Source: a virus
Length of the DNA stretch: 37,640 bases
Direction: 5' to 3' (one strand)
Virus record (IMG/VR): IMGVR_UViG_3300021256_000065
Shown: positions 772 through 34,446 of the stretch, one piece after another
How positions within the stretch are numbered: position 1 is the stretch's first letter
Layout of the letters: every line of letters begins with the position of its first letter
Notes under the pieces: generated by a model
The model's database searches: none
Told to the model about the DNA's origin: nothing
What the model saw: the letters and a program-made list of their open reading frames with translations, nothing else
Program-made: the position numbers and the translations under genes

Positions 772-800
772 TTGACAATCCAAAAGGAAAATGCTATATT
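772..800 (+). promoter_or_regulatory. sigma-70-like promoter driving an untranslated transcript
   Basis: TTGACA at 772-777, a 17-nt spacer and TATATT at 795-800. There is no ORF before the next promoter. Confidence 0.45.
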
Positions 801-910: not shown

Positions 911-939
911 TTGACATTTAAACTTAATCTGTTATAATA
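911..939 (+). promoter_or_regulatory. sigma-70 consensus promoter
   Basis: TTGACA at 911-916 and TATAAT at 934-939. Confidence 0.6.
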
Positions 940-1278: not shown

Positions 1279-1307
1279 TTGACAAAATAAAAAAGATTTA
1301 TTATAAT
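1279..1307 (+). promoter_or_regulatory. sigma-70 consensus promoter
   Basis: TTGACA at 1279-1284 and TATAAT at 1302-1307. Confidence 0.55.
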
Positions 1308-1333: not shown

Positions 1334-1498
1334 ATGAAGAACACTTGGAAAATGGAAACATCTAAGGATTTTACCGCATGGGATTTAAATTGCCGAAATG
1401 TAGTCCCCCACAAAAAGCATCACAATGAACTTGAAAAAAAATTAAAAAGAAAAAATCGTAGAAAAGTAAAAATGACGCTTGACATCCTTTCAAGATGA
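1334..1498 (+). CDS. small basic protein (54 aa)
   Basis: ATG follows RBS AGAAAGAGAGG. The ORF is shorter than the 60-aa track cutoff. Confidence 0.35.
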   Translation: MKNTWKMETSKDFTAWDLNCRNVVPHKKHHNELEKKLKRKNRRKVKMTLDILSR

Positions 1499-1507
1499 TG
1501 CTATAAT
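1479..1507 (+). promoter_or_regulatory. sigma-70 consensus promoter
   Basis: TTGACA, a 17-nt spacer and TATAAT. Confidence 0.55.
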
Positions 1508-1993: not shown

Positions 1994-2026
1994 GGCCCGG
2001 GCGCCCATTTTTTTTACTAAACCCCT

Positions 2027-2055
2027 TGACAAATCAAAGAATATCAATTATAATT
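2027..2055 (+). promoter_or_regulatory. sigma-70 consensus promoter
   Basis: TTGACA at 2027-2032 and TATAAT at 2050-2055. Confidence 0.6.
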
Positions 2056-2462: not shown

Positions 2463-2492
2463 TTGACTTTTTTCTTAATCAATGATATAATC
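2463..2492 (+). promoter_or_regulatory. sigma-70-like promoter
   Basis: TTGACT, a spacer and TATAAT. Confidence 0.5.
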
Positions 2493-2967: not shown

Positions 2968-3155
2968 TCTTCCAGCGGGGCGCGAGCCTTCGGTTCGCGC
3001 CGAAATTTCCATTGTACCACACCCCGCACTTTTTGTCAAGCAAAATCTGCAAAAAAACTACACAAAATTATATCCCAAAATTAGTGCAACATTCCGATGT
3101 TGACTTTCTAAAAAACTTATATTATAATATGTTTACAAGGTAAGGGAAGGGCAAC
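2968..3155. repeat. 190-bp direct repeat unit A, copy 1
   Basis: Direct repeat of about 85 percent identity with 4045-4232. Each copy holds a GC hairpin, a TTGACT-17-TATAAT promoter and a conserved transcript start, with no ORF. Confidence 0.7.
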
Positions 3156-3243: not shown

Positions 3244-3272
3244 TTGACAAATAAAAAATCTTATGTTATAAT
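3244..3272 (+). promoter_or_regulatory. sigma-70 consensus promoter; inverted repeat CTTATGT / ACATAAG flanks the -10
   Basis: TTGACA at 3244-3249 and TATAAT at 3267-3272. Confidence 0.6.
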
Positions 3273-3449: not shown

Positions 3450-3478
3450 TTGACAACTAAATGAGGAACTGTTATAAT
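3450..3478 (+). promoter_or_regulatory. sigma-70 consensus promoter
   Basis: TTGACA at 3450-3455 and TATAAT at 3473-3478. Confidence 0.6.
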
Positions 3479-4045: not shown

Positions 4046-4232
4046 TTGGCGCCCCGCGGCCGACCGGTCGCGGGGCGAAACTTCCATTATATCATACTCT
4101 GGGCTTTTTGTCAAGTGAAAATCTGCACAAACATCTCACCGCAAAATTCCCAAAATTAGTGCAATATTCCGACATTGACTTTTTCAAAAAAATTTATTAT
4201 AATATATTTACAAGGTAAGGGAAGTCAACCGC
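4045..4232. repeat. 190-bp direct repeat unit A, copy 2
   Basis: See copy 1. Promoter TTGACT at 4175-4180 and TATAAT at 4198-4203. Confidence 0.7.
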
Positions 4233-4262: not shown

Positions 4263-4291
4263 TTGACAAAACAAAAGCCTTGTGCTATAAT
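4263..4291 (+). promoter_or_regulatory. sigma-70 consensus promoter driving a short untranslated transcript
   Basis: TTGACA at 4263-4268 and TATAAT at 4286-4291. Confidence 0.55.
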
Positions 4292-4392: not shown

Positions 4393-4421
4393 TTGACAAA
4401 TCAAAAATCTTATGTTAAAAT
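4393..4421 (+). promoter_or_regulatory. sigma-70 promoter with inverted repeat around the -10
   Basis: TTGACA, a 17-nt spacer and TAAAAT. CTTATGT...ACATAAG surrounds the -10. Confidence 0.55.
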
Positions 4422-4936: not shown

Positions 4937-4965
4937 GTTGACAGATAAAAATAACTATGTTATAA
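4937..4965 (+). promoter_or_regulatory. sigma-70 consensus promoter
   Basis: TTGACA at 4937-4942 and TATAAT at 4960-4965. Confidence 0.6.
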
Positions 4966-4996
4966 TTTAACCATCAAGAGAAAGGAAGTACAAAAC

Positions 4997-5486: not shown

Positions 5487-5515
5487 TTGACTTTTTTATT
5501 TCTCTCTGCTATAAT
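5487..5515 (+). promoter_or_regulatory. sigma-70-like promoter
   Basis: TTGACT, a 17-nt spacer and TATAAT. Confidence 0.55.
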
Positions 5516-6324: not shown

Positions 6325-6353
6325 TTGACAAAAAAGACCTTATTTGATATAAT
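6325..6353 (+). promoter_or_regulatory. sigma-70 consensus promoter
   Basis: TTGACA at 6325-6330 and TATAAT at 6348-6353. Confidence 0.6.
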
Positions 6354-7073: not shown

Positions 7074-7074
7074 A

Positions 7075-7100: not shown

Positions 7101-7139
7101 TAATCATAATTAGATTAATCTAATTAAAATTAGTTAGGA

Positions 7140-7330: not shown

Positions 7331-7334
7331 ACCT

Positions 7335-7362
7335 TGAAATCTTAAAAAATTTTTGTTATAAT
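7335..7362 (+). promoter_or_regulatory. promoter: TTGAAA plus extended -10 (TGtTATAAT), first of two tandem copies
   Basis: CTTGAAATCTTAAAAAATTTTTGTTATAAT. Confidence 0.5.
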
Positions 7363-7394
7363 ATTAAAAAAAGGCTTTGGGAATCCGCGCCCAC

Positions 7395-7423
7395 TTGAAA
7401 ACCTAAAAAATTTTTGTTATAAT
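7395..7423 (+). promoter_or_regulatory. promoter, second tandem copy
   Basis: CTTGAAAACCTAAAAAATTTTTGTTATAAT. Confidence 0.5.
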
Positions 7424-7457
7424 ATAATTACAATAAAAAACAAAAGGAGAAATACAT

Positions 7458-7989: not shown

Positions 7990-8330
7990 TCCACCACCAC
8001 TGCCTATTTTTATCTATTTTTACTTATTTATTTCTATCTATATCTATTCAATCTATCTATTTATACTTATTTTGTCTATCTAGCCTTTATTTATACCTAT
8101 TTAATTTATTCATGTTTATTTATATTCATTTATACCCATTCTTGCTATTTTCTAACCTATTCCCATTTTAACTTATCTCTGCCTATTTATCCATTTCCGC
8201 CATTCATACTTATTTATATCTATCCCTAACTCTATTCTATCCTTCTTATCATTTATACCCATCTCTATTTGTCATTTAATCTATTCAGCTTATCTTACCC
8301 ATCTCATCCATCACCACTTTACTCATTTCT
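7990..8330. repeat. low-complexity, G-depleted plus strand with degenerate CTATTTAT, TCTATC and TTATAC repeats over about 340 bp
   Basis: The plus strand has almost no G. Short pyrimidine-rich motifs recur. Confidence 0.6.
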
Positions 8331-8639: not shown

Positions 8640-8775
8640 TATTACCATATATTATAATATTATATAACATTATTATATTATATATCATCACATTATTACA
8701 TTATTTTTATTATATTATACTACATTATTATATTACATATCTATATAATTATATCACTTATTATTTTTCTCACGA
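8640..8775. repeat. G-free A/T/C low-complexity ATTATTA-type repeats (possible DNA unwinding element)
   Basis: About 135 bp made only of A, T and C, with ATTATA and TTATTA reiterations. Confidence 0.5.
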
Positions 8776-9198: not shown

Positions 9199-9966
9199 TC
9201 AATTAAAAAATCCATTCAATTCTACATCCATCCCTAAACACTTAAAATATGACCCTGCCCTATTTGTAATAAAAGCATCATTCTGTTCTAGTAATCTCTT
9301 TACATCTCTAATTTGTTTATAACTTAATCCAGTCATTTTCGCTAAATCCGCATATGTAAAAGGTTGATTTTCCTCACATATTCTAACAGCTTCCCATACT
9401 TGCATCAATTGCGGAATCTTATTAAAATTCTTATGATTTTCATCTGCAATTCTTTGGCATTCTCTCATCATATTAATAGAAATAGAATGTTGATTTTCTA
9501 ATTTAGCTCGCAAATATAAAATAATAAAATCTTCATCTTCATGAAATACAATAAATTCTCTTTCAACCAAAGACTCTATTACTTCATTTAAAGTTTCAAT
9601 ATTCTTTTTAGTAGGCTTAATTCCTACATATTTCAATAAATCTTCGCGGCGGCCCCTATAAACTCCCTGGGACGAGGCCGCAAGAGTAAGAAATACGAAA
9701 AACTCATACGCTTCAAAACTTAAACTTTCAATCGAAATTGGAATATCATTAACTTCATTATATATAGTTAATGCACGAGTATCTTCAAAAATTTGATAAT
9801 ATTTTTGACCATCCTTTTCACATCTAATAATATCAACATTATATTTCTTTTTTAATGAAGCTATGGTTCGTTTAAAATTAGTTTTTAAACTACTTTCTGA
9901 ACAACCAAATAATTCACAAATTTCTTTTGCTGTCATTAATTCTCTTATATCCATAAAATTTTTCAT
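9199..9966 (-). CDS. DNA-binding protein with N- and C-terminal HTH segments; candidate replication initiator or regulator
   Basis: ORF ending TGA. The ATG at 9966 gives MKNFMDIRELMTAKEICELFG, an HTH-like segment. The C-terminus has TYADLAKMTGLSYKQIRDVKRL. The inverted repeat GTCGTAAGATACGAC lies upstream. Confidence 0.45.
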   Translation of the reverse strand: MKNFMDIRELMTAKEICELFGCSESSLKTNFKRTIASLKKKYNVDIIRCEKDGQKYYQIFEDTRALTIYNEVNDIPISIESLSFEAYEFFVFLTLAASSQGVYRGRREDLLKYVGIKPTKKNIETLNEVIESLVEREFIVFHEDEDFIILYLRAKLENQHSISINMMRECQRIADENHKNFNKIPQLMQVWEAVRICEENQPFTYADLAKMTGLSYKQIRDVKRLLEQNDAFITNRAGSYFKCLGMDVELNGFFN

Positions 9967-10068
9967 TATTATAATTTTGTCGTATCTTACGACAACTCCT
10001 TTCAAATAATATAAAAATTATTTAAAATGAATTATCTAAAATCGACCAATTTCATGCGGCGACCTCCG

Positions 10069-11290: not shown

Positions 11291-11459
11291 TGTTTTTCTC
11301 CTTTATTTCATTTTCTTATCTATATTATATAATATTTTTTTCATTTTTTCAACCTTTTATACCACTTTCCTTTTTCTTCTTTTGATTTTTATAAGTTTTT
11401 TTGATATAATAATATCATAAGAAAATAACTTATTACATTTTAACAAAAGAGGAAAAGCC

Positions 11460-12274: not shown

Positions 12275-12354
12275 TTTATTGATTTTTTTAAAAAATTATT
12301 GTATAATATATACATAAGATAAAAAGGGTATGCACAAAAGAAAAGAGGTCTGTT

Positions 12355-15021: not shown

Positions 15022-15050
15022 AGCTGCGGATCCGCAGCTTTATTTTTTTA
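15022..15050 (+). terminator. rho-independent terminator
   Basis: AGCTGCGG/CCGCAGCT hairpin followed by a T-run. Confidence 0.6.
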
Positions 15051-15103
15051 AAAAATTATTATATAATATATACATAAGATAAAGAAAAGGAAAGGTGATA
15101 AGT

Positions 15104-15994
15104 ATGGAAAAAATCTTTGTAGCTGATTCTTATAAGGATATGGAGATTATTGGTGAGCCTTTTAAAAATGAAAAAGGACGCCTCTATGTAAAAGTCAAAG
15201 GCGTTTGCCCGCGTTGTGGCGGTTCTGGTCACTATTCTTATAATCAAATGGACGGGACCCGTTGCTACGGATGTATGGGATCTGGCATTTCTATCCAGAA
15301 AGTCCGTGCTTACACTGAAAAAGAATACACTCGTATGCAGGCGGCAAATGAGCGTGCCCGCGCAAAGAAAGAAGCAGAAAAAGAAGCTAAAGCTCGTGAC
15401 CTTGTTGAAAATGCCACTAAGTATAAGCATGAAGTTGCTTTGAAACTTGGCTTTGGTGAGAATGAAAAAGCTTATCTTGTTTATGGTGATGACACTTTTG
15501 CTATTAAAGACCAGCTGAAGAAACTGGGAGCAAGATTTGATCCCACTCTTAAATGGTTCTTTGCTGAAGAAGTTGCGCTGCCCGAAGGTTATAAGCTCTG
15601 CGAGATGAGTTTCGACGAGCTTTATAACTACAATATCAACACTAAATGGGCAGAGTTTAAGGAAGATGCTAAGGCTATTGTCTCCCGCCGCATTAATGAA
15701 CTCAAAGGCCCCTCTACTTCGGAATATTATCCTGGAGCAGAGAAGGAGCGGATTCGCAATATTACTGCAAAAGTAGCCAGCATCCGCGGTTTTGAGGGTA
15801 TGTATGGATATACTTCTGTATATACTTTTACCTCTGGTAATTATGTTTTTGTGTGGATGACCGCAAAATGTGATCTTGATCTTACTGCAGGAGAAACTGT
15901 TGACCTTACTGGAACTATCAAAAAATTTGATGAGTATATGGGAATTAAACAGACTCATCTTACTAGATGCGTTGTCAAGAAGATTGAAGAATAA
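15104..15994 (+). CDS. hypothetical protein with N-terminal CxxC-x16-CxxC zinc ribbon (297 aa)
   Basis: ORF with RBS AAAGGAAAGG. An extended -10 promoter with the conserved leader lies upstream. Confidence 0.55.
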   Translation: MEKIFVADSYKDMEIIGEPFKNEKGRLYVKVKGVCPRCGGSGHYSYNQMDGTRCYGCMGSGISIQKVRAYTEKEYTRMQAANERARAKKEAEKEAKARDLVENATKYKHEVALKLGFGENEKAYLVYGDDTFAIKDQLKKLGARFDPTLKWFFAEEVALPEGYKLCEMSFDELYNYNINTKWAEFKEDAKAIVSRRINELKGPSTSEYYPGAEKERIRNITAKVASIRGFEGMYGYTSVYTFTSGNYVFVWMTAKCDLDLTAGETVDLTGTIKKFDEYMGIKQTHLTRCVVKKIEE

Positions 15995-16096
15995 TATAAA
16001 TAATCAATGAAGGCATATTAAAAATCCTTCATTGATTATTATTAAAAAATATATTATAATATATATATAATAAAAAAGAGGAAGGAAATCACCATT

Positions 16097-17341: not shown

Positions 17342-17369
17342 ACATATAAATCTTCTTTTGATTTTTAAT

Positions 17370-17401
17370 AAAAATTTTGTTATAATATATACATAAGATA
17401 A
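17370..17401 (+). promoter_or_regulatory. extended -10 promoter (TGtTATAAT) with conserved leader ATATACATAAGATAAAG
   Basis: One of at least 12 copies of this promoter and leader module. Confidence 0.5.
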
Positions 17402-17893: not shown

Positions 17894-18003
17894 AAATGGC
17901 AACAAAGAGACCGCCGCTTGAAAATCTTAAAAATTTTTGATATAATAAATATGTAAGATAAAGAAAGAACAAATTGAAAAAAGAGAAAAAAGGAGAATTT
18001 ACT

Positions 18004-18408
18004 ATGGAAAACACCACAAAGAAAACTAAGGCTATGTATTTTGCAGAACTTCGCGAGATGGTTGCAGGCTTGGTCGATAGAGAGGATCAGGATGAGCTTC
18101 TTGAGTTTATTGACAAGCAGATCGAGGCTATCGAAAAGCGGAAGGTAGCTGCCGCAAATAGAGCGGAAAAGAAGAAAGCTGAGTCCGATGCTTTGACTGA
18201 TGCTATTCTGGCACAGATCGGAGAAGAACTCATTACTGTGGATGAGATTGTTGTGGCTCTTGATGATGAAGAGGTTACTCGCAACAAGGTCACCGCTCGT
18301 CTTGGTAAGCTGGTAAAGGCTGGCGTTATCACCAAGGAAACCGTAAAGGTTGATGGTAACAAGAGAATGGCCTATAGGCTTGCCGCAGCCGCTGATGATG
18401 AAGAGTAA
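18004..18408 (+). CDS. small protein, winged-helix-like paralog family (4th member)
   Basis: RBS AAAAGGAGAA. FIDKQIEAIEKRK parallels FIDHEIELLNRK in the paralogs. Confidence 0.5.
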   Translation: MENTTKKTKAMYFAELREMVAGLVDREDQDELLEFIDKQIEAIEKRKVAAANRAEKKKAESDALTDAILAQIGEELITVDEIVVALDDEEVTRNKVTARLGKLVKAGVITKETVKVDGNKRMAYRLAAAADDEE

Positions 18409-18485: not shown

Positions 18486-19271
18486 ATGTTTTGTTTAGAT
18501 TATTATCCTTCTCAAAAGTATCTATAGGACGCGGATGAATTTAAAATTAAATATCGTCCATCTGATCGTACATTAGAAGATTTCTTAAATAAATATATTA
18601 ACAAATCTATCGTGATAGATGTATCAGATTCTTTTGAGTAGGTTGATGCACAGTTATTAAAAGGATTATCTGATAAATATCAAAATGTTAAGATTATTTT
18701 TAATTTTAATAAAAAAGATTATTTATCAAGAGCCGAAAAATATAACATTCCACATTTTTTTATCAATCCAATTACTTCAATAGATCAACTGTGGGGATTG
18801 ATAAAATATAATCCAACTGATATGTATATATGTAGTGAATTAGGTTTTTCATTAGATAAAATTAGTAGGCTGTTACATGAAAATAACATTAAAGTTAGGG
18901 TTTTTCCAAATGTTTGTCAATCAACTTTTTTTTCAGAAATTCCTAGTATAAAAACATTTTTTATTAGACCAGAAGATATTCCCGTATATAGTTAGTATGT
19001 AGATGTTTTTGAATTAGTCACAAATGAAAAAACTCAACGAATTTTATTTAAGATTTATAAACAAAATAAATGGATTGGACAATTAAAAGATATTATTCCT
19101 ACTTTTAAAGATTAGCTTGATAATAAATATTTATTAAAAAATTTTGGAGAACTTAGAAGTAAATGCGGCAAGCGGTGTATGTACACCTTTGGCGGCTGTA
19201 ATATATGCGATAGATTCATAGAAATTGTAAATCTTATTGAAGAAAGTAAAAATGCGTCAGAAAATCAGGAT
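18486..19271 (+). CDS. hypothetical protein with 4 in-frame TAG codons and a C-terminal CGKRC...GGCNIC motif
   Basis: RBS AGGAGG. A single frame of about 260 codons interrupted only by TAG. Ends TGA. Confidence 0.45.
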
Positions 19272-19328
19272 TGATTTTTTTGAAAATTTTTGATATAATA
19301 TGTATATAAAATAAAGAGGAGAAATAAT

Positions 19329-20131: not shown

Positions 20132-20202
20132 AGGGCATTAGCTCAGTGGGAGAGCGCGCGTCTTATAAACGCGTGAGGGTAGTTCAATTCTACCATGCCC
20201 TA
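20132..20202 (+). tRNA. tRNA-Ile (anticodon TAT)
   Basis: Cloverleaf AGGGCAT/ATGCCCT. Anticodon loop CTTATAA. Confidence 0.7.
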
Positions 20203-20294
20203 TTATCTGGTTTAAAGAATTTCTTTTTGATTTTTTTAAAAAAATATTATATAATATTTATATGATAAAGATAGAAAAAGAAAGGAAATTGCAT

Positions 20295-21209
20295 ATGACA
20301 GAGATTATGATTGATGCACTTGATCTTGATGAAGATATGGAATTTGATCAAGAGAATGAAACAATTATAGAACAGCCTGATGCGGTTGTTACAAGTCCTG
20401 TAAAAATGTATTTACGAGAAATCGGCAAATATAATCTTCTGTCAAGAGAAGAAGAAATAGAACTAGCGGAAGCCGCCCTTAAAGGCGATAAGGAAGCGAA
20501 AGAAGCCCTTATCAATCACAATTTACGTTTGGTGGTTTCTGTTGCTAAACGCTATATGGGGCGAGGACTTACTCTTCTTGACCTGATTCAGGAAGGAAAT
20601 GTAGGTTTAATTAAGGCAGTTGATAAGTATGATGTGTCTAAGGGTTTTAAATTCTCTACATATGCTACCTATTGGATTAAGCAGGCAATTTCTCGTGCAG
20701 TAATGGATCAGACTAGAAATATTCGTATTCCTGCCCATATCATTGAGATGATGAGTAATATTAAAAAGACTGAACGTGAATTTCAGCAGATTCATGGGCG
20801 TGAGCCTAAAGAAGCTGAAGTTGCGGCTGCTCTTGATATTGAAGTTAAAAAAGTTAAGGAAGTATATGCCTGGATGAAGGATACTACTTCTCTTGATATT
20901 ATAGTCGGCGATGATGAAGATATTACGGTTGGCTCTTTTATTGAAGATGAGTCTGCAGTTCCTGCTTTTGCGGCAATCGAAGAAAATGATCGCACTATCG
21001 CGATTAAAAATATCCTTGATACTTTGAATGATCGTGAAAAAATGGTTATTGTACGGCGGTTTGGTATTGGTCTTGATAGAGCCGAAACTCTTGATGAGAT
21101 TGGTAAGGAACTTGGACTTAGCAGAGAGCGCATTCGTCAGATTGAAGCAGCTGCGCTTAGAAAGTTGCGGAATCCTCGTCGTGCTAATCTGCTTAAAGAA
21201 TTTTTCTAA
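20295..21209 (+). CDS. RNA polymerase sigma-70 family factor (RpoD-like regions 1.2 to 4)
   Basis: YLREIG (1.2). [18 protein letters not shown] and [12 protein letters not shown] (region 2). A region-4 [30 protein letters not shown]. Confidence 0.85.
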
Positions 21210-21301
21210 AATTTTTTTGGGCAGGGTTGTTTAAAAAAATCTACATAATTTTTAATAAAAATAGACTTCCAGGGAAGCTTATTGATTTTCTTATAAAATT
21301 T

Positions 21302-21335
21302 TGATATAATATATATGTAAGATAAAGAGAGAAGA
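21302..21335 (+). promoter_or_regulatory. extended -10 promoter (TGaTATAAT) plus ATGTAAGATAAAG leader, upstream of the tRNA cluster
   Basis: TTTTGATATAATATATATGTAAGATAAAGAG. Confidence 0.45.
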
Positions 21336-21436
21336 AAATAATAGTTCCTTGAAGAAGTCAGAAATTCCTTATGGAGGTTGAGCCAAGCGCCACTCTCTGT
21401 AAGGAAGATTAGAAAATTGATTTTATAAAAAATTTT

Positions 21437-21460
21437 TGATATAATATATATGGAAAATTA
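21437..21460 (+). promoter_or_regulatory. extended -10 promoter (TGaTATAAT)
   Basis: TTTTTGATATAAT. Confidence 0.4.
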
Positions 21461-22230: not shown

Positions 22231-22521
22231 TTTGTCAAAGTCCTTCATGGAGGGCAGACCTAAATTGATATTAATCATGCTTGATAAAGACCGTATTTCA
22301 GCAAAACACCCTTTTCTGAACATAGGAATATTGATAAGGATCGGCTAATAACTGACGGAGTAGATTTAGCAAGTGAGGGAATTTTGTAACTCCAAATATT
22401 AAACTAAAAACCTCATTACGGTCTTGCTTTAATTGAAAATTTTAAAAAAATATATTATAATATATATAGAAAGTTAAAAAGGAGTTGATTTTATGAAAGG
22501 TGATAAACCTCTTAAATATTA

Positions 22522-23179: not shown

Positions 23180-23253
23180 GCGGCAATAGTGGAGTGGTTT
23201 AACACAGCGGTCTCTAAAACCGCGGATCCTGGGTTCGAATCCCAGTTGCCGTA
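23180..23253 (+). tRNA. amber suppressor tRNA (anticodon CTA, reads UAG)
   Basis: Canonical 74-nt cloverleaf. Acceptor GCGGCAA/TTGCCGT with G1-U72. D-loop AGTGGTTTA. Anticodon stem GCGGT/ACCGC with 7-nt loop CTCTAAA, anticodon at 23214-23216. T-arm CTGGG-TTCGAAT-CCCAG. Discriminator A. Confidence 0.85.
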
Positions 23254-23740: not shown

Positions 23741-23762
23741 TAAAATCACTTACAGCAAAAAT

Positions 23763-23835
23763 TGTTCAGTAGTCAAAAGGTTAAGACATTAATTTTTAAG
23801 ATTAAGTAATGCTGGTTCGATTCCAGCCTGAGTTG
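23763..23835 (+). tRNA. tRNA-like gene with anticodon TTA (ochre-suppressor-like); functionality doubtful
   Basis: Canonical T-arm GCTGG-TTCGATT-CCAGC. Anticodon stem TTAAT/ATTAA with loop TTTTAAG. Acceptor has a 1-72 U-U mismatch. TAA clearly terminates genes in this window. Confidence 0.35.
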
Positions 23836-23849
23836 AGTGATTTGTTTTT

Positions 23850-25304: not shown

Positions 25305-25394
25305 CGGAACGTAGCTCAATGGTAGAGCTTTGACGGTAAACAACAAGGGGTTCGTCACCTACTTGTGATGCACGTTCGAATCGTGCCGTTCCAA
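25305..25394 (+). tRNA. tRNA-like gene with C1xA72 mismatch and about 18 extra nt; anticodon unresolved
   Basis: Perfect D-arm GCTC-AATGGTA-GAGC and T-arm GCACG-TTCGAAT-CGTGC. Internal stem ACAAG/CTTGT with a 14-nt loop. Confidence 0.4.
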
Positions 25395-25509
25395 CGGCTG
25401 CCGAGAGCAAACGATCCGCTTGCAGGGAAGTTACCATAGAGTAGAGCTTCAGAAGAGTGCGGGATGAGCGGTTGGTGGAAACCTGAACCACCATTATAGA
25501 ATTTAGCAT

Positions 25510-26952: not shown

Positions 26953-27525
26953 ATGAAAAAAATAATATTATGTACTGCTTTTTCCTTATTTTTACTTAAC
27001 ACTGATGCGGTTGCCGCTACAAAAAAAGTCACCGCAAATTTAAATGTAAGAAAATAGCCAAATACAGAGTCTGAAATAGTTGGGTTATTACCAAAAGGGA
27101 AGATAATTAAAACTAAAAAGACTGAAAATTAGAATTGGGATAAAATTAAATATGAAGATGAAACTTGCTATGTTTGTAATACTTATTTAGAAAAAGTAAG
27201 TAAAGAATAGCTAGAAAAGATAGAAGAACTTTTATCCTTACGAGAAATTTCTTTAGAAGATTTTAGATATAGAGGTGTTATTAATTGGAGTGGATGGAAT
27301 TGGACATATTACTTAATGAGTCAATTCCCTGGATCAACTTCAACACCAGTAGAGGGAAGGTATGTTAATGATGAAGGTTTTGTTTGTGATAGTTAGGGAT
27401 ATATAATTTTAGCTTCAGTTGACTTATCTCCCTACACAATAGTAGATACACCATTTGGTTATCAAGGTAAGGTATATGATACTGGATGCCCATATGGAAC
27501 ACTTGATGTTTACGTTAATTGGTAA
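26953..27525 (+). CDS. secreted cell-wall-binding hydrolase-like protein (signal peptide, SH3b, 3D domain) with 4 in-frame TAG
   Basis: Signal peptide MKKIILCTAFSLFLLNTDAVAA. LNVR.xP...W.KIKY (SH3_3-like). GYIILASVD...GKVYDTGCPYGTLDVYV (3D-domain-like). Only TAG interrupts the frame. Ends TAA. Confidence 0.55.
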
Positions 27526-27574
27526 TTATTTGAAAAAATAAAAAAATTTTATTATAATATATATATAAAGAAAA

Positions 27575-27868
27575 GATGCTTACAGCAAATAAATATAATA
27601 CAAAAAAAACATTAACCTGGAAAAATTTTTTTAGTATACGCATCTTGAAAATAGGGGATTAATACAACAGTAGTATATGCGGCTTTGACCCGTAGTACCC
27701 AGGGGCAGCACCTGGATCCCCTGTTTCCTGTAGACACATACAGCAAAATATTATAAATTTTTAGGAAAATTTAGCAGAGAATATTAAGTGTCTAGTTTAA
27801 TCAGTTTCTTTACTCCCTTTCTTTTGATTTTGGGGCTAGACGTAATATGTCTAGCCCTATATTTTTTT
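27575..27868 (+). ncRNA. candidate non-coding RNA of about 290 nt between an A/T promoter and a strong terminator
   Basis: -10 TATAAT at about 27554. No ORF over 33 aa. GC-rich core CCCAGGGGCAGCACCTGGATCCCCTG. Terminator GGGCTAGAC/GTCTAGCCC plus T7 at 27833-27868. Confidence 0.3.
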
Positions 27869-27881
27869 GGAGAAAAATAAA

Positions 27882-28181
27882 ATGAGCAGATCTTATAAAA
27901 AAGCTCCTTATTATGGAGATAAAAAAAATAAAGAAACTAAAAGAATAGCAAATAAAGCTGTTAGAAATTATCTTAAAAATTTTGAACATGAATTGCCTAA
28001 AAGAGATTTTAGAAAAGTTTTTTGTTCTTGGGATATATGTGATTACGGTTGGCTGCAGCCTTGGGAAGAATATTGGAAAAATTGTTTAAGAAATTACAAA
28101 AGACATCCTGAATGGTATAAGCATCCGCCGAATAAAAAAGAAGAATATAGAAACTGGTATAAAACTTATAAAATGAAGTGA
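27882..28181 (+). CDS. small highly basic Lys/Tyr/Trp-rich protein (99 aa)
   Basis: RBS GGAGAAAAATAAA before the ATG. Ends TGA. No TAG. Confidence 0.5.
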   Translation: MSRSYKKAPYYGDKKNKETKRIANKAVRNYLKNFEHELPKRDFRKVFCSWDICDYGWLQPWEEYWKNCLRNYKRHPEWYKHPPNKKEEYRNWYKTYKMK

Positions 28182-28199
28182 TAAAAGGAGATAAAGGAT

Positions 28200-29711
28200 A
28201 TGAATACTTTTCTTAATCAGATGAAGAAAGATAATAATATTGATTATACAGAGAATGGCGGCGTGACCCATAAGTCTACGGAGTCTAAGGTTCTTGACAT
28301 GTTTGCGGTCGGCGGTGCATATAGAAACCGTTCTGATGAAGATGTTATTCTTCTCTTCAAAAACGCATTTGAAGAAGACCGCCTTCTGGCTATGAAATGC
28401 CTGTTTTATCTTCGCGATGTGCGCGGAGGACAGGGAGAAAGACGCTTCTTTAGAGTTGCCTTTCGCTGGCTTTGTGACGAATATCCTGAAGTTGCAAAGA
28501 AGAACCTTGACAATGTTAGTGAGTATGGTCGCTGGGATGATTTGATTTATGTTACGGAAGGTACTAGATGTCAAACCGCCGCATTCAATATCATCAGACA
28601 TCAGCTTGCTCTTGATACTCAGTGCAAAACGCCCTCCCTGCTTGCAAAGTGGCTTCCTTCTCAGAATGCTTCCAATGCAGAGACCAAGAGATTGGGACAT
28701 GTTTTGGCAAATTTCTTAGGGATGACCAGCCGCGAATATCGTAAGACCCTTTCTGTTCTTCGTGAACGCATTAATGTGCTTGAGCGTCTTATGAGCACTG
28801 GTAGATGGGATGAAATCGAATTTGATAAAATTCCTTCTAGAGCAGGTATTATTTATCGTAATGCCTTTGCTCGCCGCGATATTCTTGCCAAAAAGTATGA
28901 AGCTTTTGCCAAGAGTAAAGATACTAAGGTAAATGCAGATGCACTGTATCCGCACGATATTGCTCACAGAGCTTTTGAGATGCGTTATCATACTAACCTT
29001 GAAGATCCCACTCGTCTTATGCTTCAGAAGTATTGGGATAATCTCAAAGACTTCTATAACGGCAGAGAAGAGAATGGTATTGCAGTCGTTGATGTGTCTG
29101 GCTCCATGTCTGGAACTCCAATGGAAGCTGCAGTTTCTATGGGGGCTTACATCGCAGATAAAGCACATGGGCCTTTTGCGAATCACTTTATTACTTTTTC
29201 TTCCTCTCCTGAATTGGTAAGGTTTGAAGGAGTTGATATTGTTGATAAGTTTCGTCGTTGTGTTGGGGCAAACTGGGGTATGAATACCAACTTGCAGGCG
29301 GTATTTGATATGCTTCTGCATACTGCAATGAGAAAGAATGTAAAGGCTGAAGATATGCCGACTCGAATTTACATTTTTTCTGATATGGAGTTTGATCAGT
29401 GTGTGTCTTTTGATTGTACCCCTAAGCTTCACAGATGGGAAGGTTACCGTACTGTCAACTCTGTTGATGAGGTAAATTCCGATCTTGAGAAGATTAAAAA
29501 GGAATGGGCACGGTATGGATACAAAATGCCTCAGGTCATCTTTTGGAATCTCGATGCCCGTCAGAATCATATTCCAGCTATTGGAGAAGGGTTCAGTTAC
29601 GTGAGTGGTTTTTCGCCTTCTATGATTGACTGCATCTTGAGCGGCAAGGATGGCTGGGATTTGATGCTTGAAAAGCTCATGTCCAAACGTTATGCGGCAG
29701 TTGTTGCATAA
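28200..29711 (+). CDS. vWA-domain protein, DUF2828-like (503 aa)
   Basis: MIDAS-like VVDVSGSMSG. N-terminal TENGG...YLRDVRGGQGERRFFR, as in DUF2828. No internal TAG. GC content above that of its neighbours. Confidence 0.5.
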   Translation: MNTFLNQMKKDNNIDYTENGGVTHKSTESKVLDMFAVGGAYRNRSDEDVILLFKNAFEEDRLLAMKCLFYLRDVRGGQGERRFFRVAFRWLCDEYPEVAKKNLDNVSEYGRWDDLIYVTEGTRCQTAAFNIIRHQLALDTQCKTPSLLAKWLPSQNASNAETKRLGHVLANFLGMTSREYRKTLSVLRERINVLERLMSTGRWDEIEFDKIPSRAGIIYRNAFARRDILAKKYEAFAKSKDTKVNADALYPHDIAHRAFEMRYHTNLEDPTRLMLQKYWDNLKDFYNGREENGIAVVDVSGSMSGTPMEAAVSMGAYIADKAHGPFANHFITFSSSPELVRFEGVDIVDKFRRCVGANWGMNTNLQAVFDMLLHTAMRKNVKAEDMPTRIYIFSDMEFDQCVSFDCTPKLHRWEGYRTVNSVDEVNSDLEKIKKEWARYGYKMPQVIFWNLDARQNHIPAIGEGFSYVSGFSPSMIDCILSGKDGWDLMLEKLMSKRYAAVVA

Positions 29712-29721
29712 TTTTATATAT

Positions 29722-29757
29722 GAAGGATATGCAAAAATTGCATATCCTTCTTTTTTT
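29722..29757 (+). terminator. rho-independent terminator
   Basis: 12-bp stem GAAGGATATGCA/TGCATATCCTTC followed by T8. Confidence 0.7.
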
Positions 29758-29981
29758 GTGTGTAGAAAATGGATAAATGGATTTTTAAGGTCTACTTCAA
29801 TAAATCTCCAAAACTGTTCGGCGCGCAGACACTCGTATTTCAGAATTCAAAACGGCCTTTGGATTTTTTATTTTTACATTTTCATATTTAGCATTTTGGC
29901 CAAAAATAGATAACTACCATTATTAATTTTTAATATAAGATATAGGAATGAATATGCTAATCAAAAGGAGGGACTATAATT

Positions 29982-30461
29982 ATGATAGCATTACTTTAGC
30001 ACTATTCTTTATCTGATATATTAATCTTCTTGATTTTTCTTGCTCTAGGTATTAAAAGTTTAATTTCTTTTTTTGACTGGGTTTATGGATATATAAAAAG
30101 AGCTTTTAATATAGAATACTCTAAAAAGAGTGAAAAATAGCAAATTGAGTAGCGGTTACAGCAAGGTAGCGAAACCATAGCAATTTTAACCGCAAATCAA
30201 TAGGCAACTGATAAAGTTCTTTTAGATTTATCCGCAAAAATTGATATGTTAATTGATTCAGATAAAGATGCAATAAAGTCTTATATAACAAAAGAACATC
30301 ATCATTTCTGTTATTAGGTTGGATAGATAGACGACTTTAGTTTGGATTGTCTTGAAAAACGTTATCAACATTATACAGATGAAGGCGGAAATTCATTTAT
30401 TGAACACTTTATGTGTGATTTAAGAGCTTTGCCTAAATAGGGTTCTTTTAATGGCAACTAA
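29982..30461 (+). CDS. small membrane protein (holin-like candidate) with about 7 in-frame TAG
   Basis: RBS AAAAGGAGGG. N-terminal TM ILIFLIFLALGIKSLISFF. Frame closed only by TAA at 30459-30461. Confidence 0.35.
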
Positions 30462-30491
30462 TAACAATGGAGAAAAAAGGAGAATTAAAAA

Positions 30492-32369
30492 ATGGCATTG
30501 ATGTTAAACACTTTATATCCACCTATTATGATGGATGTAATCCCTGGTTTTATAAGAACATCAACATGTAGAATATATTTTTCTATATCCGATTATAATT
30601 CTGCCAAAGACATAGCAAATGTTCAAGTTGCATTAACAAATGTAAAAACTAACACTTCTGCATTGAATACTGATTTGTACCCCGCAGAAATTAAATTAAC
30701 TGAATTACTTTATGATGACCAAAAGTAGGACGATTATTGTTATTATATAACAATAAGTCCTGCTGATTTAGCGGGCGGGGAATTTTTATTAAATCAATAT
30801 TATAAAATTCAATTACGCTTTACATCAAAAGATGCAGATAGTGTTAGTTTAACTGGAGTTCAACAAATTGCTACTTGGTTAAATAATAATCTTATGTTCT
30901 TTTCTTAGTGGTCACGTGCGGGAATCATTAGAGGGATTTCAAGACCAACGCTTTATATTGATTATTTAGATGATGAGGATGAAGAAGAGGAAGAAGAAAG
31001 TGAAAATATTTCATTATCCGCCCCATTATCAAAAATTACTGGTAGATTAACTTTTGCAGATGAAGGCGAATTAGACTATTTAGCTTCTTATAATGTTAAA
31101 GTTTATTTAAGTAAGCAAGATAATAAATTAATTTTTGATAGTGGTATTCAACATCCAATAGAAGAAAATGAGATTGATTGTAACTTATTATGTGATTTAT
31201 AGGATTAGCGGCTGTATATGATAAAAATTAGTTATACTACAAACTATGCTTATAGTAAATAGGAAAACTATATAATACAAGTGCGAGTCGAGAGCCAAGA
31301 CTTAAATCCATTCAATCTAACAATCACTCCAACAAGAAATGAAGAGGATGGTTATATAAATCTTCATATTACGATGGATAAAACTAAAGATTTTTCTGAT
31401 AAACAATTATTAATTAGAAGAATATCTTCAAAAGATAATTTCTTAATATGGGAAAATTTATATGCTATAGATTAGAGCTTTTCCACATTTGATTGGCAAG
31501 ACTTATCTGTAGAAAGCGGGATTTGGTATAAATATGCGTTATATGTAGTAGATTTAAATAAAACTATTTTATATAACCCTATAGAAACAGATCCAATATT
31601 GTGCATTTTTGAAGATATATTTTTAGTAAGTGATAATATTCAATTAAGATTACAATTTAATCCTTCCATAACAAGTTTTAAATATAATACAACTGAATCT
31701 CAACAAGTTACTTTAGGAGGAAAATTTCCTTATATTAGAAGAAATGGAAATAATTATTATAGAACCTTTTCTATTGGCGGTCTTATTAGTTCTTTAATGG
31801 ATGAAACTGATTGGTATGATTCTTATATTCATCCGCCGCATCCAATATAGGGAGAAGAAGAACAGGAAGAAGAAGAAATCACTTTACCACATATCAGATT
31901 TACTTCTAAATAGGATAAATATAAAGATTCTTATGATTTATATCAACAATATGAATCAGATAAAAATATTTCTAATTATCTTAATCCAATATATGAAAGA
32001 TTCTTTAGAGAAACTGTATATGATTTCTTTTATAAAAATAGTGTAAAATTATTTAAATCTCCAACAGAAGGTAATATATTAGTTAAATTAACCAATATTA
32101 ATTTTGAGCCTCAAGCTCAATTAGGACGCGTATTATATTCATTTACCGCAACCACAGTTTAGATAGATGAACCAACTTTTGAAAATTATAAAAAATATAA
32201 AATCTTTCCTGATGATATATTTGAATATGTTACTGAATCTCCTGCTTTAGAGATCGAATTTGGTACAGCCACAATGGTGCTGGTTATAAATGCAAATGGT
32301 GCAAGTCAAAATGGAAATCAGAATTGGGCATTGCATTTAGAGCCTTATCCTATTAAAGGAGGAGGTTAA
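30492..32369 (+). CDS. large virion structural protein (tail or baseplate-like, about 625 aa) with about 9 in-frame TAG
   Basis: RBS AAAAAGGAGAA. The ORF fragments 30492, 31281 and 31599 share one frame and are separated only by TAG. Ends TAA at 32367-32369. Confidence 0.55.
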
Positions 32370-32371
32370 TA

Positions 32372-34396
32372 ATGCAAACATATCCATATTTAAATGATTT
32401 AGCTTTTTTAAGAGAACTTGATCTATCAAAAGTAAAAGAACAATTTGTGAGAATTAACGTTTTGTCTTTTAAAGATGAAAAACCAATAGAACAAATTGAA
32501 GGAGATGTGGTAAGCGGCAATATTACAATAGATGGAAATTCAGCGATGCGGCGAACCGCAAATTTATCTATTGTGGTAAAAAAAGATGAATATTCTAATA
32601 GAGATATTAGAAAAATTTTAACTATAAATAAAAAAGTATAGTTATTAATAGGATTTACTAATACAACTAATAAATATGAACAATATCCAATTTTATGGTT
32701 CCCGCAAGGAATTTATGTAATTATTACTCCTAATATTATTTATAATAATAATGGTATCAATATTTCATTGACATTACATGATAAAATGGCCTTGCTAAAT
32801 GGGGAATGCGGCGGAACTCTACCTGCATCTATTACATTTACTGAAATAGAAGATGTTGATGAGAATGGCGAAAGACAAATTTCTAATCCTACTATATATC
32901 AAATTGTACAAGAATTAGTTAATCATTTTGGCGGATAGCAGCTTGGAAAAATAATTATTGAACTTGATAAAAAAATAAAAAAGGTAATGCGGTGGACAGG
33001 TTCAACGCCGCTTTACCTATATCAAGAAGCACTTCCAGACGGTACAATGTATAGTAGTTTTAGTACAAATGAAAATTAGTTAAGAAGGCAAGGAGAAGGG
33101 ACAATTCAAGAATTTTAGTACGGATAGGATATAGGTTACGTTTTGACTGATTTTATCTATCCACAATAGCTAACTAATAACCCTGGAGAGACCATTGTAA
33201 GTGTCTTAGACAAAATTAAGAATTGGCTTGGAAATTACGAATATTTTTATGATATTAATGGTAATTTCAGATTCCAAGAGATAAAGAATTATTTGAATAA
33301 AACATATGCAACATTTTTAATTAATGAAATAAATTCAAATAATTACTTAACTAATTATGCAAATGGAAAATCTGTTTATACTTTTGAAGATTCTGATATT
33401 ATTCAATCATATTCAAATTCCCCGCAATATCAACAAATAAAAAATGATTTTGTTGTTTGGGGTAAAAGAACTACAACAGAAGGAAAATAGATTCCTATTC
33501 GTTATCATTTAGCTATTGATAAAAAGCCTGCAGTCGGGAATTAGTATAAAGTATTTTTCTATACTGATCCCGATGATAACATTTTAAAAGCTAAAAGACC
33601 TTTAGAATTTGCTACAAGAAATTAGTTTCCAGAAACCGGAGATGTATGTCAATATTATTATGCGGCAGACACTGGTTTTATATATAAATGGGACGCGAGT
33701 GTACAAAATTATGCCACAACCCCATATATAATTGAAACAATAGAAGCAAAAGATTATAGGACTTAGCTCTATATGTCTGGTGTTGCTAGTTAGCCGTTTG
33801 GTTTAGATAGTAATTATTATTACACAGAATTAAAAAATGAATGGCCTAAACTATATGATATGCGGCAAGGAAAATTCTTTGATGAAATACTAGATCAGCC
33901 TAGTAACATGGATTTCTTTTTAGATTTTATAGATACTTCTACCGCTATTTCAGAATTTAGCATAGAAAATATTGGTAGACGTACCCTTACAATATCAAAT
34001 GATGCAATAAATTGTATTTTTTAGCCTGATAACCCTGATATAGTTATTATTGAAGCAAACAGCGAAGGCGCGGATGATCTTCGAGAATAGTGTTAGCATA
34101 GACGACAAGAATATTCTCAAGTAACATCAGACATTTATTCACAGCTAGTTACTGGCGGAGTTTTAAGATCTGCTTATGAAGAAATAAGAACAGAACTCTA
34201 TCAATATACTGATTATAATGAACAAGTTACATTAACTACTTTACCAATTTATTATCTTGAACCTAATGTACGGATAACAATTAAAAATTAGTAGAGCGGA
34301 ATTGATGGAGATTACATGATAAAAACAATTTCATTACCATTAGATGTTAATGGAATGATGAATTTATCTTGTACAAAAGCACTTGAAAGAATTTAA
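32372..34396 (+). CDS. large virion structural protein (about 675 aa) with more than 12 in-frame TAG, including a tandem TAG TAG
   Basis: RBS AAAGGAGGAGG. Fragments 32372 and 33293 are in frame. Ends TAA near 34394. Confidence 0.5.
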
Positions 34397-34399
34397 CAA

Positions 34400-34446
34400 A
34401 AAAAAATAATGGCGATGATATTTTTATATCATCGCCATTTTTTTAT
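34400..34446. terminator. bidirectional rho-independent terminator between convergent genes
   Basis: 13-bp stem AATGGCGATGATA/TATCATCGCCATT with A-run and T-run flanks. Confidence 0.65.

What the first reader, a model, noticed from the sequence alone, without database searches (positions are those of the whole stretch)
20295..21209. Phage-encoded full-length sigma-70 factor alongside two distinct promoter classes
The ORF has clear regions 1.2, 2.1-2.4, 3 and 4. The window shows two promoter classes. The early class is a perfect TTGACA-17-TATAAT with UP-like A/T tracts (at least 15 copies in 1-7500). The middle class is an extended -10 TGnTATAAT, with or without TTGAAA, followed by the conserved leader ATATACATAAGATAAAG(A)AAGGAG. 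At least 12 copies of the middle class sit at about 7335, 7395, 11399, 12296, 15050, 16045, 17370, 17925, 19283, 20238, 21302, 21437, 22445, 26893 and 27548. The phage sigma may redirect RNA polymerase to one class.
Basis: partly seen in the sequence, partly recalled or inferred. Interest (0 to 1): 0.55.

Follow-up and report, generated by a model that had tools for sequence, protein, structure and literature searches.

The report
Optional housekeeping-like sigma factor in phage
An uncultured rumen-type phage of about 135 kb carries its own copy of a bacterial "housekeeping-like" sigma factor and has two clearly different promoter types, but close relatives that lack the sigma gene keep both types, so the sigma looks like an optional booster and not the switch between them.

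Summary
ORF 20295-21209 is a 304-aa sigma-70 family protein with regions 1.2, 2, 3 and 4, but no region 1.1. It lies in a phage that reads TAG as a sense codon.

Two promoter classes are real and well separated.
- Early class: 16 sites on the + strand and 1 on the - strand, at 358-6353. Each has an A/T-rich UP-like tract, TTGAC(A/T), a 17-nt spacer and TATAAT.
- Middle class: 14 sites on the + strand and 1 on the - strand, at 7334-27558. Each has TTGA(TT/AA), an A/T-only spacer and TATAAT followed by AT.

The proposed link between the sigma and one class is not supported.
- The residues that read the -10, extended -10 and -35 elements match those of host-type SigA.
- Every promoter class carries TATAAT.
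- The sigma gene itself sits behind a middle-class promoter.
- Six syntenic relatives lack the sigma at its slot. They keep both promoter classes at the same density, and they keep the amber suppressor tRNA. The one relative for which the late region was fetched also keeps the late-operon box and TAG-rich late genes.

Where the sigma is present it is under purifying selection (dN/dS 0.05-0.16).

Best reading: an accessory, primary-like sigma cassette that supplements host SigA on the phage's TATAAT promoters. It is a new member of a known kind, of moderate interest.

The parts
20295..21209 (+). Sigma-70 family gene, 304 aa, primary-like (regions 1.2, 2, 3, 4; no region 1.1), with no in-frame TAG
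   Evidence: Pfam hits, NCBIfam hits, alignment to solved SigA chains at E = 3e-85, dN/dS 0.05-0.16
20227..20255 (+). Middle-class promoter in front of the sigma gene (TTGATT, 17-nt spacer, TATAAT)
   Evidence: a promoter at the same place was found upstream of sigma in 11 of the relatives examined
20132..20202 (+). tRNA-Ile(UAU), which appears to belong to the tRNA + promoter + sigma cassette that several relatives lack
   Evidence: a tRNA-like stretch lies upstream of sigma in L010, L011 and L013 (read from the sequences printed); no tRNA lies in the slot of L289
358..386 (+). Early-class promoter
772..800 (+). Early-class promoter (-10 is TATATT)
911..938 (+). Early-class promoter (16-nt spacer)
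1279..1307 (+). Early-class promoter
1479..1507 (+). Early-class promoter
2026..2054 (+). Early-class promoter
2463..2491 (+). Early-class promoter (-35 is TTGACT)
3100..3128 (+). Early-class promoter (TTGACT), part of a duplicated module
3244..3272 (+). Early-class promoter followed by the ACATAAGATAAAG leader (a hybrid of the two classes)
3450..3478 (+). Early-class promoter
4086..4114 (-). Early-type promoter on the minus strand, followed by a G+C-rich hairpin
4175..4203 (+). Early-class promoter (TTGACT), second copy of the duplicated module
4263..4291 (+). Early-class promoter
4393..4421 (+). Early-class promoter (-10 is TAAAAT) followed by the leader
4938..4966 (+). Early-class promoter
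5487..5515 (+). Early-class promoter (TTGACT)
6325..6353 (+). Early-class promoter, the last of the block
7334..7362 (+). Middle-class promoter (first of a tandem pair)
7395..7423 (+). Middle-class promoter
11324..11352 (-). Middle-class promoter for the minus-strand block
11382..11410 (+). Middle-class promoter
12279..12307 (+). Middle-class promoter
15039..15067 (+). Middle-class promoter (-35 is TTTATT)
16032..16060 (+). Middle-class promoter
17358..17386 (+). Middle-class promoter
17918..17946 (+). Middle-class promoter
19271..19299 (+). Middle-class promoter
21282..21310 (+). Middle-class promoter downstream of sigma, at the head of the tRNA region
21417..21445 (+). Middle-class promoter
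22433..22461 (+). Middle-class promoter, the nearest matrix-scan promoter upstream of the main tRNA cluster that holds the suppressor tRNA
27530..27558 (+). Middle-class promoter that leads into a non-coding stretch of about 300 nt
23180..23253 (+). Amber suppressor tRNA (anticodon CUA) inside the middle-class region
   Evidence: TAG recoding shown
29896..29945 (+). Conserved box TTGGCCAAAAATAGATAA-N15-AATTTTTAATATAAGAT upstream of the first heavily TAG-recoded operon (29982-34396); a candidate late promoter or activator site
   Evidence: also present in L041, which comes from the same contig as the sigma-less locus L289

Best explanation
The ORF encodes a primary-like (group 1/2-type) sigma-70 family factor that an uncultured, TAG-recoded phage of about 135 kb carries as an accessory cassette: tRNA-Ile, a middle-class promoter, and the sigma gene.

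The gene has no in-frame TAG, so the host can translate it in the standard code. It is most likely first transcribed by host SigA holoenzyme from its own TTGATT-17-TATAAT promoter. The protein then probably binds host core RNA polymerase and reads the same elements that host SigA reads: TATAAT at -10, the TG-extended -10, and a TTGA-type -35.

On this reading it does not define a promoter class. It adds to, or stands in for, the pool of primary sigma on all of the phage's TATAAT promoters. This could matter when host SigA is scarce, sequestered or out-competed.

The early/middle difference is instead written into the promoters themselves.
- Early promoters have a UP-like tract and a consensus TTGAC(A/T) -35.
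- Middle promoters have TTGA(TT/AA), an A/T-only spacer and an A/T discriminator.
Host SigA presumably reads both, with or without other phage factors.

**Shown:** domain content, the conserved DNA-contact residues, the two classes and their layout, the presence/absence polymorphism of the cassette, and purifying selection.

**Inferred:** binding to host core, the timing of expression, and the booster role.
For: - **Domains and residues.** Regions 1.2, 2, 3 and 4 are present. The alignment to solved SigA chains has E = 3e-85 and keeps RERIRQIE in region 4.2, the His and Glu of region 3.0, and the Gln of region 2.4.
- **Shared -10.** All classes carry TATAAT.
- **Sigma's own promoter.** The gene lies 13 kb inside the middle-class region, behind a middle-class promoter. 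No early-class promoter was found between 6353 and the sigma gene. Host polymerase must therefore be able to start at this class.
- **Sigma-less relatives.** Six syntenic relatives lack the gene. In L289 the slot is 413 bp and runs straight into sequence resembling what follows the sigma stop codon in the window.
- **What these relatives keep.**
  - Middle-class density is 5.7-9.0 per 10 kb, against 5.3-7.1 in sigma-bearing loci.
  - There are 7-8 early sites in the two loci that reach well into the early block.
  - TTGATT makes up 55% of -35 hexamers, against 51% in sigma-bearing loci.
  - The suppressor tRNA is present in all six.
  - For the L289 lineage, L041 shows the late box and TAG-rich late genes.
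- **Scattered distribution.** Sigma-bearing and sigma-less lineages are interleaved on a tree of a neighbouring marker gene.
- **Negative scans.** The contigs of the sigma-less relatives, including the 132.7-kb contig, are absent from two collection-wide sigma scans.
- **Selection.** dN/dS is 0.05-0.16 among six sigma alleles.
- **Literature.** RpoD-like sigmas are reported in large phages (PMC7824862), and one huge phage is reported to encode its own sigma-70 (PMC7162821).
Against: - No experiment or transcript data exists for this phage.
- Only about 20-30 kb of each sigma-less genome was read. A relocated or divergent sigma lacking the STYA[TM]YW and KLRN motifs cannot be excluded.
- The middle-class -35 is a specific alternative consensus (TTGATT or TTGAAA with TTGA fixed), not a random weakening. 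This hints at a dedicated reader.
- The promoter next to sigma has the host-consensus TTGAC in 5 of 12 lineages, against 14 of 135 other A/T-spacer promoters (p = 0.009). That would fit a sigma that has to be made first in order to serve TTGATT promoters.
- The phage sigma clade has a conserved W433Y/R436K signature in region 2.4 whose effect is unknown.
Confidence: 0.5

Rival explanations
1. The phage sigma is the preferred reader of the middle class. Host SigA would give a first trickle of sigma from its own promoter. Phage-sigma holoenzyme would then favour TTGA(TT/AA) + A/T-spacer + TATAAT-AT promoters, a positive-feedback loop that also switches on the suppressor tRNA.
For: - The middle-class -35 deviates from the consensus only at positions 5-6, and it does so in a conserved way across relatives whose marker protein is as little as 52% identical.
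- Promoters next to sigma are enriched for TTGAC (5/12 against 14/135, p = 0.009).
- The phage sigma clade shares the YWIKQ signature and lacks region 1.1.
- Sigma and the suppressor tRNA both lie in the middle-class region.
Against: - Sigma-less syntenic relatives keep middle-class promoters at the same density and with the same hexamer make-up.
- The region 4.2 recognition helix, including the Arg that reads C at -31, is unchanged.
Confidence: 0.15
2. The sigma is made in the middle phase and directs late transcription of the TAG-recoded structural and lysis genes, as T4 gp55 and SPO1 gp33/34 do. It would act at promoters such as the conserved box at 29896-29945.
For: - In known phage cascades a sigma is made in one class and serves the next (established knowledge of SPO1 and T4; PMC9429907, PMC2988021).
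- A distinct conserved element with a degenerate -35 precedes the late operon.
Against: - The late box and the TAG-rich late operon are conserved in L041, which is the same contig as sigma-less L289.
- Only one late site per locus could be examined.
- A sigma with an intact region 4.2 would be expected to use a -35 element, and none is conserved there.
Confidence: 0.1
3. The sigma acts mainly on the host, not on phage promoters. It would compete with host alternative sigmas (stress, sporulation) for core polymerase to hold the cell in a growth-like state, or it would resist or act as a decoy for an anti-sigma factor, whether phage- or host-encoded.
For: - It is accessory and patchily distributed, like auxiliary genes.
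- Phage sigma homologues are reported to alter host dormancy (PMC9429907).
- One huge phage is reported to target its host's sigma-70 gene while encoding its own (PMC7162821).
- In close relatives, region 4 differs from the SigA consensus at positions that are activator or anti-sigma contacts in E. coli: K593A and H600N. The contact roles are from my own knowledge.
Against: - No anti-sigma or other RNA-polymerase-directed gene was recognised among the early ORFs tested.
- The host is unknown.
- Nothing in the sequence distinguishes host targets from phage targets.
Confidence: 0.15

Closest known systems
RpoD-like sigma factors of large and jumbo phages (Iyer et al. 2021, PMC7824862; the huge phage with its own sigma-70 in Al-Shayeb et al. 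2020, PMC7162821)
   Same: A phage with no RNA polymerase of its own carries a nearly complete sigma that is close to cellular RpoD. It is presumed to recruit host core polymerase.
   Different: - This phage family is about 135 kb, TAG-recoded and probably infects Bacillota.
- The sigma is shown here to be an optional cassette within the family.
- The promoter repertoire around it has been mapped.
- No relative closer than about 52% identity was listed among GenBank phage records or among species-representative genomes.
Bacterial group 2 (primary-like, non-essential) sigma factors such as RpoS and actinobacterial SigB
   Same: About 300 aa, regions 1.2 to 4.2 without region 1.1, DNA-reading residues like those of the primary sigma, and dispensable.
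   Different: It scores below the curated cut-offs of the RpoS model and of all RpoD/SigA models. It is encoded by a phage and forms a clade with a YWIKQ signature.
Bacillus phage SPO1 sigma cascade (gp28, gp33/34) and its host-takeover module
   Same: A long battery of very strong SigA-type early promoters in front of small ORFs, followed by later classes, with a phage-encoded sigma acting on host core polymerase.
   Different: SPO1 sigmas are highly diverged and essential, and they read promoters unlike those of SigA (PMC9429907; the promoter sequences are from my own knowledge). Here the sigma is primary-like and optional, and all classes keep TATAAT.
T4 early and middle promoters, and phiEco32 gp36/gp79
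   Same: Early promoters are consensus sigma-70 promoters with UP elements. Later classes keep the -10 but change the -35 region (PMC2988021). phiEco32 pairs its own sigma with an inhibitor of the host sigma (PMC12276001).
   Different: No AsiA, MotA or gp79 homologue was recognised here. The middle-class -35 keeps TTGA instead of being replaced by an activator box.

Membership tests
Sigma-70 family | Region 2 and region 4 domains | tested here: met
   PF04542 scores 78.5 bits and PF04545 scores 65.3 bits, both above the gathering score. TIGR02937 scores 117.9 against a cut-off of 42.9.
Sigma-70 family, groups 1-2 (primary and primary-like) | Region 1.2 and region 3 present in addition to regions 2 and 4 | tested here: met
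   PF00140 scores 52.9 bits and PF04539 scores 70.1 bits.
Group 1 primary sigma (RpoD/SigA) | N-terminal region 1.1 | tested here: not met
   Only 35 residues precede region 1.2. Alignments to SigA chains start at about chain residue 83.
Group 1 primary sigma (RpoD/SigA) | Reaches the curated equivalog score of an RpoD/SigA model | tested here: not met
   NF004208 scores 353 against a cut-off of 555. NF006666 scores 334 against 572. TIGR02393 scores 302 against 354.
Group 1 primary sigma (RpoD/SigA) | Conserved residues that read the -10, extended -10 and -35 elements | tested here: met
   RERIRQIE in region 4.2, the His and Glu of region 3.0, and the Gln of region 2.4 are all kept. The changes are W433Y, R436K and T440S.
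Group 2 primary-like sigma (for example RpoS) | Dispensable paralogue without region 1.1 | tested here: met
   The gene is absent from the syntenic slot in six relatives. The RpoS model itself is below its cut-off, 291 against 378.7.
Phage class-switching sigma (SPO1 gp28, T4 gp55, phiEco32 gp36 type) | Reads a promoter class that the host primary sigma does not read | tested here: inconclusive
   The residues predict host-like specificity, and all classes share TATAAT. No biochemical data exists.
Phage class-switching sigma (SPO1 gp28, T4 gp55, phiEco32 gp36 type) | The dependent promoter class occurs together with the sigma gene | tested here: not met
   Sigma-less relatives keep early and middle promoters. 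One of them, the only one checked, also keeps the late box.
Phage class-switching sigma (SPO1 gp28, T4 gp55, phiEco32 gp36 type) | Binds host core RNA polymerase and displaces the host sigma | not testable with these tools
   This needs biochemistry.
SigA/sigma-70-type promoter (early class) | TTGACA, a spacer of 17 +/- 1 nt, and TATAAT, found above chance and upstream of genes | tested here: met
   11 exact matches against 0.04 expected. All 16 + strand sites point the same way. Most are followed within about 50 nt by a GGAG-type ribosome-binding site and a start codon.

The most novel reading that the evidence does not exclude
The sigma cassette is a mobile 'transcription insurance' module. 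It would be a primary-like sigma with region 2.4 and region 4 substitutions (W433Y, R436K, K593A, H600N) and no region 1.1. That would make it insensitive to whatever inactivates or limits host SigA during infection: a phage early protein, a host defence, or stationary-phase sequestration. It would also give preference to the TTGA(TT/AA), A/T-spacer promoters that drive the amber-suppressor tRNA. Transcription takeover and the genetic-code switch would then be coupled in the phages that carry it.
Probability: 0.15. Interest if true: 0.65.

Novelty: new member of a known kind. Interest (0 to 1): 0.4.

Why it matters
Sigma factors encoded by phages are usually described as switches that move host RNA polymerase from one gene class to the next. 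This case is different. A primary-like sigma sits in a phage with a very clear two-tier, and probably three-tier, promoter layout, yet comparison with relatives shows the sigma is optional and none of the promoter classes depends on it.

That argues for a different role for RpoD-like sigmas in large gut and rumen phages: supplementing or protecting housekeeping-type transcription. It also offers a natural with/without comparison for testing that role.

The promoter map shows in addition that the amber-suppressor tRNA lies in the middle transcription class, upstream of the TAG-recoded late operon. This fits the published idea that recoding times late protein synthesis.

Tried and rejected
- **GenBank phage relatives.** Megablast of 20 kb matched only a tRNA. 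tblastn with the sigma and with the DUF2828 protein listed nothing above about 52% and 41% identity respectively. No annotated relative could be used.
- **Host identification.** A scan of species-representative genomes with the sigma gave at most 51% identity, spread over many phyla. There is no host and no prophage.
- **A repeated late promoter class.** The TTGGNCAANAAT box occurs once per locus, and the late operon has no internal gaps. A class could not be established. Walking downstream with the SASA esterase found only one distant locus.
- **Co-variation of region 4.2 with the -35.** The L019-L024 phages have a different recognition helix (SREWIRRIE), but too few promoters per locus to judge.
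- **Anti-sigma or takeover genes.** Pfam and PHROGs gave only a deoxyribonucleotidase-like protein and an exonuclease-like protein among the early ORFs tested.
- **Compensation in sigma-less phages.** They do not have a better -35. TTGAC makes up 11% of hexamers in both groups.
- **Extended -10 as the class marker.** Rejected.
- **Rfam match for the non-coding stretch at 27566-27870.** None was significant.
- **Not run.** Structure prediction, because the sequence match to solved SigA structures is already unambiguous.

Full report
**What the window is.** The window is part of an uncultured tailed phage.
- It holds 17 tRNA genes, including an amber suppressor (anticodon CUA).
- It holds a tail protein, an amidase/glucosaminidase endolysin and a sialate-esterase-like protein.
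- Reading TAG as a sense codon raises long-ORF coverage of 27000-37640 from 0.49 to 0.95. The late genes carry 7-16 in-frame TAGs each.
- Relatives are IMG/VR contigs of 118-145 kb.
- The exact sigma protein occurs on metagenome contigs of up to 113 kb.
- No close GenBank phage was found.
- No close homologue was found among species-representative bacterial genomes, where the best identity was 51%.

**The sigma ORF.** ATG 20295 to TAA 21209 encodes 304 aa, the length called for its more than 100 database homologues.
- Pfam finds regions 1.2, 2, 3 and 4, all above threshold.
- NCBIfam ranks RpoD/SigA models first, but all are below their curated cut-offs.
- The protein aligns to solved Firmicute SigA chains from about chain residue 83 to the C-terminus, with E = 3e-85. 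Region 1.1 is therefore missing, and a 35-residue acidic tail takes its place.
- The residues that read DNA in primary sigmas are kept. These are RERIRQIE in region 4.2, the His and Glu of region 3.0 that read an extended -10, and the Gln of region 2.4. E. coli numbering and contact roles are from established structural knowledge.
- The changes are W433Y, R436K and T440S in region 2.4. In close relatives there are also K593A and H600N in region 4.
- The YWIKQ signature is shared by nearly all phage homologues, down to 35% identity.
- Pairwise dN/dS among six alleles is 0.05-0.16, so the gene is functional where it is present.

**The promoter classes.** A listing of every TATAAT with its flanks shows two families. 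I aligned them, built position weight matrices (PWMs) and scanned the window.
- **Early class.** There are 16 sites on the + strand between 358 and 6353, and one on the - strand. Each has an A/T-rich UP-like tract, TTGAC(A/T), a 17-nt variable spacer (16 nt once) and TATAAT (or TATATT or TAAAAT). Most are followed by a ribosome-binding site and a small ORF. Exact TTGACA-N16-18-TATAAT occurs 11 times against 0.04 expected.
- **Extent of the early block.** It continues for at least 8 kb upstream of the window on a metagenome contig that carries identical copies of two window genes. That adds about 13 more + strand sites.
- **Middle class.** There are 14 sites on the + strand from 7334 to 27558, and one on the - strand at 11324-11352. 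Each has TTGA(TT/AA), a 17-nt spacer that is 82-100% A/T (consensus tttTtAAAAAatTtT), and TATAAT followed by ATAT. A class pattern gives 18 hits against 0.05 expected.
- **Separation of the classes.**
  - C at -35 position 5: 17/17 early against 0/15 middle (p = 1.8e-9).
  - A/T content of the spacer: p = 1e-4.
  - A/T content upstream of the -35: p = 0.0014.
  - AT straight after the -10: 13/15 middle against 2/17 early (p = 4e-5).
  - TG before the -10 does not separate them: 12/17 early against 8/15 middle.
- **The leader.** ACATAAGATAAAG is found behind only some middle sites and also behind two early ones.

**Conservation of the layout.** The middle-class consensus recurs throughout a broad phage group in which a neighbouring DUF2828 protein is 52-87% identical. 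This scan used the window's own matrix, so it leans towards that motif. A distant relative whose sigma is 45% identical (L021) shows the same two classes, with the early block on the opposite strand. The layout is therefore old and under selection.

**A third element.** A conserved box lies upstream of the first heavily recoded operon (29982-34396). It reads TTGGYCAAAAATAGATAA, then about 15 nt, then AATTTTTAATATA(A/T). It includes a TATAAT-like -10 and a degenerate -35. It occurs once per locus, and the operon behind it has no internal gaps. It is a candidate late promoter or activator site, but not a demonstrated class.

**Does the sigma define a class?** Four lines of evidence say no.
1. 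Its DNA-reading residues predict the same specificity as host SigA.
2. Every class uses TATAAT.
3. The gene lies 13 kb inside the middle-class region, behind a middle-class promoter of its own (20227-20255). The same is true in the relatives where a promoter could be identified. Host holoenzyme must therefore be able to start at this class.
4. The decisive test came from relatives fetched with a neighbouring marker gene (window 15104-15994).
   - In eleven relatives the sigma sits 4.2-7.3 kb downstream of the marker, in the same slot.
   - In six relatives with full downstream sequence (L285, L288, L289, L295, L296, L297) the sigma is missing. The marker protein in these is 66-84% identical. 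All nine upstream genes tested and the downstream tRNA array with its suppressor tRNA are in place.
   - In L289 the slot is 413 bp. It runs straight into sequence resembling what follows the sigma stop codon in the window.
   - Sigma-bearing and sigma-less lineages are interleaved on a tree of the marker protein.
   - Sigma-less loci have 5.7-9.0 middle-class sites per 10 kb, against 5.3-7.1 in sigma-bearing loci. They have 7-8 early sites in the two loci that reach well into the early block.
   - Their -35 hexamer make-up is the same: TTGATT 55% against 51%, and TTGAC 11% in both.
   - All six have the suppressor tRNA. For the L289 lineage, L041 (the same 132.7-kb contig) also shows the late box and TAG-rich late genes.
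   - None of their contigs appears in two collection-wide sigma scans.

**Caveats.**
- Only part of each sigma-less genome was read.
- The second scan lists the best 80 of 122 hits, although a family-type orthologue would rank well inside that list.
- Some points still favour a specific reader for the middle class. Its -35 is a defined alternative consensus, not a random weakening. The promoter next to sigma carries TTGAC in 5 of 12 lineages, against 14 of 135 other A/T-spacer promoters (p = 0.009; the lineages are not fully independent).

**Most likely mechanism.** The sigma is an accessory, primary-like factor.
- It is translatable in the standard code and is first expressed through host SigA.
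- It then supplements or substitutes for the host primary sigma on the phage's TATAAT promoters in general.
- The early/middle distinction lies in the promoter architecture: UP-like tract plus consensus -35, against TTGATT plus A/T spacer and A/T discriminator.
- Rival readings are kept at lower confidence: a preferred reader of the middle class, a late sigma, and a host-directed or anti-sigma-resistant factor.

**Comparison with what is known.**
- RpoD-like sigmas in large phages are on record (PMC7824862, PMC7162821).
- Phage sigma cascades (SPO1, T4, phiEco32) are classic (PMC9429907, PMC2988021, PMC12276001).
- Two papers on TAG-recoded gut phages contain neither 'sigma' nor 'promoter' in their main text (bioRxiv 10.1101/2021.08.26.457843; PMC10607447).
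- This is therefore a new member of a known kind. What is added here is that the sigma is optional within its family and is not tied to any promoter class.

Noticed in passing
window 27000-37640; tRNA at 23180-23253: TAG is read as a sense codon in the late genes. Genes at 29982-36470 carry 7-16 in-frame TAGs each, and ORF coverage rises from 0.49 to 0.95 when TAG is read through. An amber-suppressor tRNA(CUA) lies in the middle-class region.
   Followed up: partly
window 23762-23836: A tRNA with anticodon UUA, which would read the TAA stop codon. It scores 51 bits against the Rfam tRNA model and sits close to the amber suppressor. TAA nevertheless ends the sigma gene and appears to be a common stop codon here.
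   Followed up: no
window 27566-27870, next to 27882-29711: A middle-class promoter leads into about 300 nt with no ORF, ending at a strong terminator (27831-27859). The predicted fold has z = -2.9 and includes a cloverleaf-like branch. There is no Rfam match. It lies just upstream of a small basic ORF and a DUF2828/DUF7788 protein that one Bacillus phage record annotates as an RNA-binding protein. It may be a Y-RNA-like RNA paired with a Ro-like protein.
   Followed up: partly
window 8000-8330 and 8640-8760: A gene-poor, A/T-rich stretch with short iteron-like repeats (variants of CTATTTATAC) and strongly negative GC skew. It is followed by a dense run of overlapping TATAAT/ATAATAAT repeats ahead of the minus-strand block. 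It may be a replication origin or a regulatory region.
   Followed up: no
window about 3040-3130 and 4086-4203; L195 2735, 4458, 5482: Duplicated modules with divergent early-type promoters. The minus-strand promoters have no ORF behind them and are followed directly by G+C-rich hairpins. They may give short antisense RNAs.
   Followed up: no
window 21330-21400: Between the two middle-class promoters downstream of sigma there is what looks like a hairpin carrying GTTGAGCCAAGCGCC. The motif is kept almost unchanged in relatives, including sigma-less ones. It may be a small RNA or a processing signal at the head of the tRNA region.
   Followed up: no
window 20295-21209 compared with L005/L276 and L001: The sigma allele looks mosaic. 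The first ~170 residues (regions 1.2-2) nearly match L005. The last ~60 residues (region 4) match L001 and not L005. The flanking genes are 93-100% identical to the L005 contig, while the sigma is only 87% identical (dS 0.55). This suggests recombination within the gene.
   Followed up: partly
window 25305-25395: An odd tRNA-like gene. ARAGORN reports a two-base anticodon, and the Rfam tRNA model gives 42 bits. It may be an unusual or interrupted tRNA. Similar odd calls occur in relatives.
   Followed up: no
window 29896-29945: The near-palindromic box TTGGCCAA... upstream of the first TAG-rich operon is conserved at the same place in about a dozen sequence-distinct relatives. It is a candidate binding site for a late activator. 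Weak helix-turn-helix candidates lie at 18004-18408 and 9199-10005 (minus strand).
   Followed up: partly
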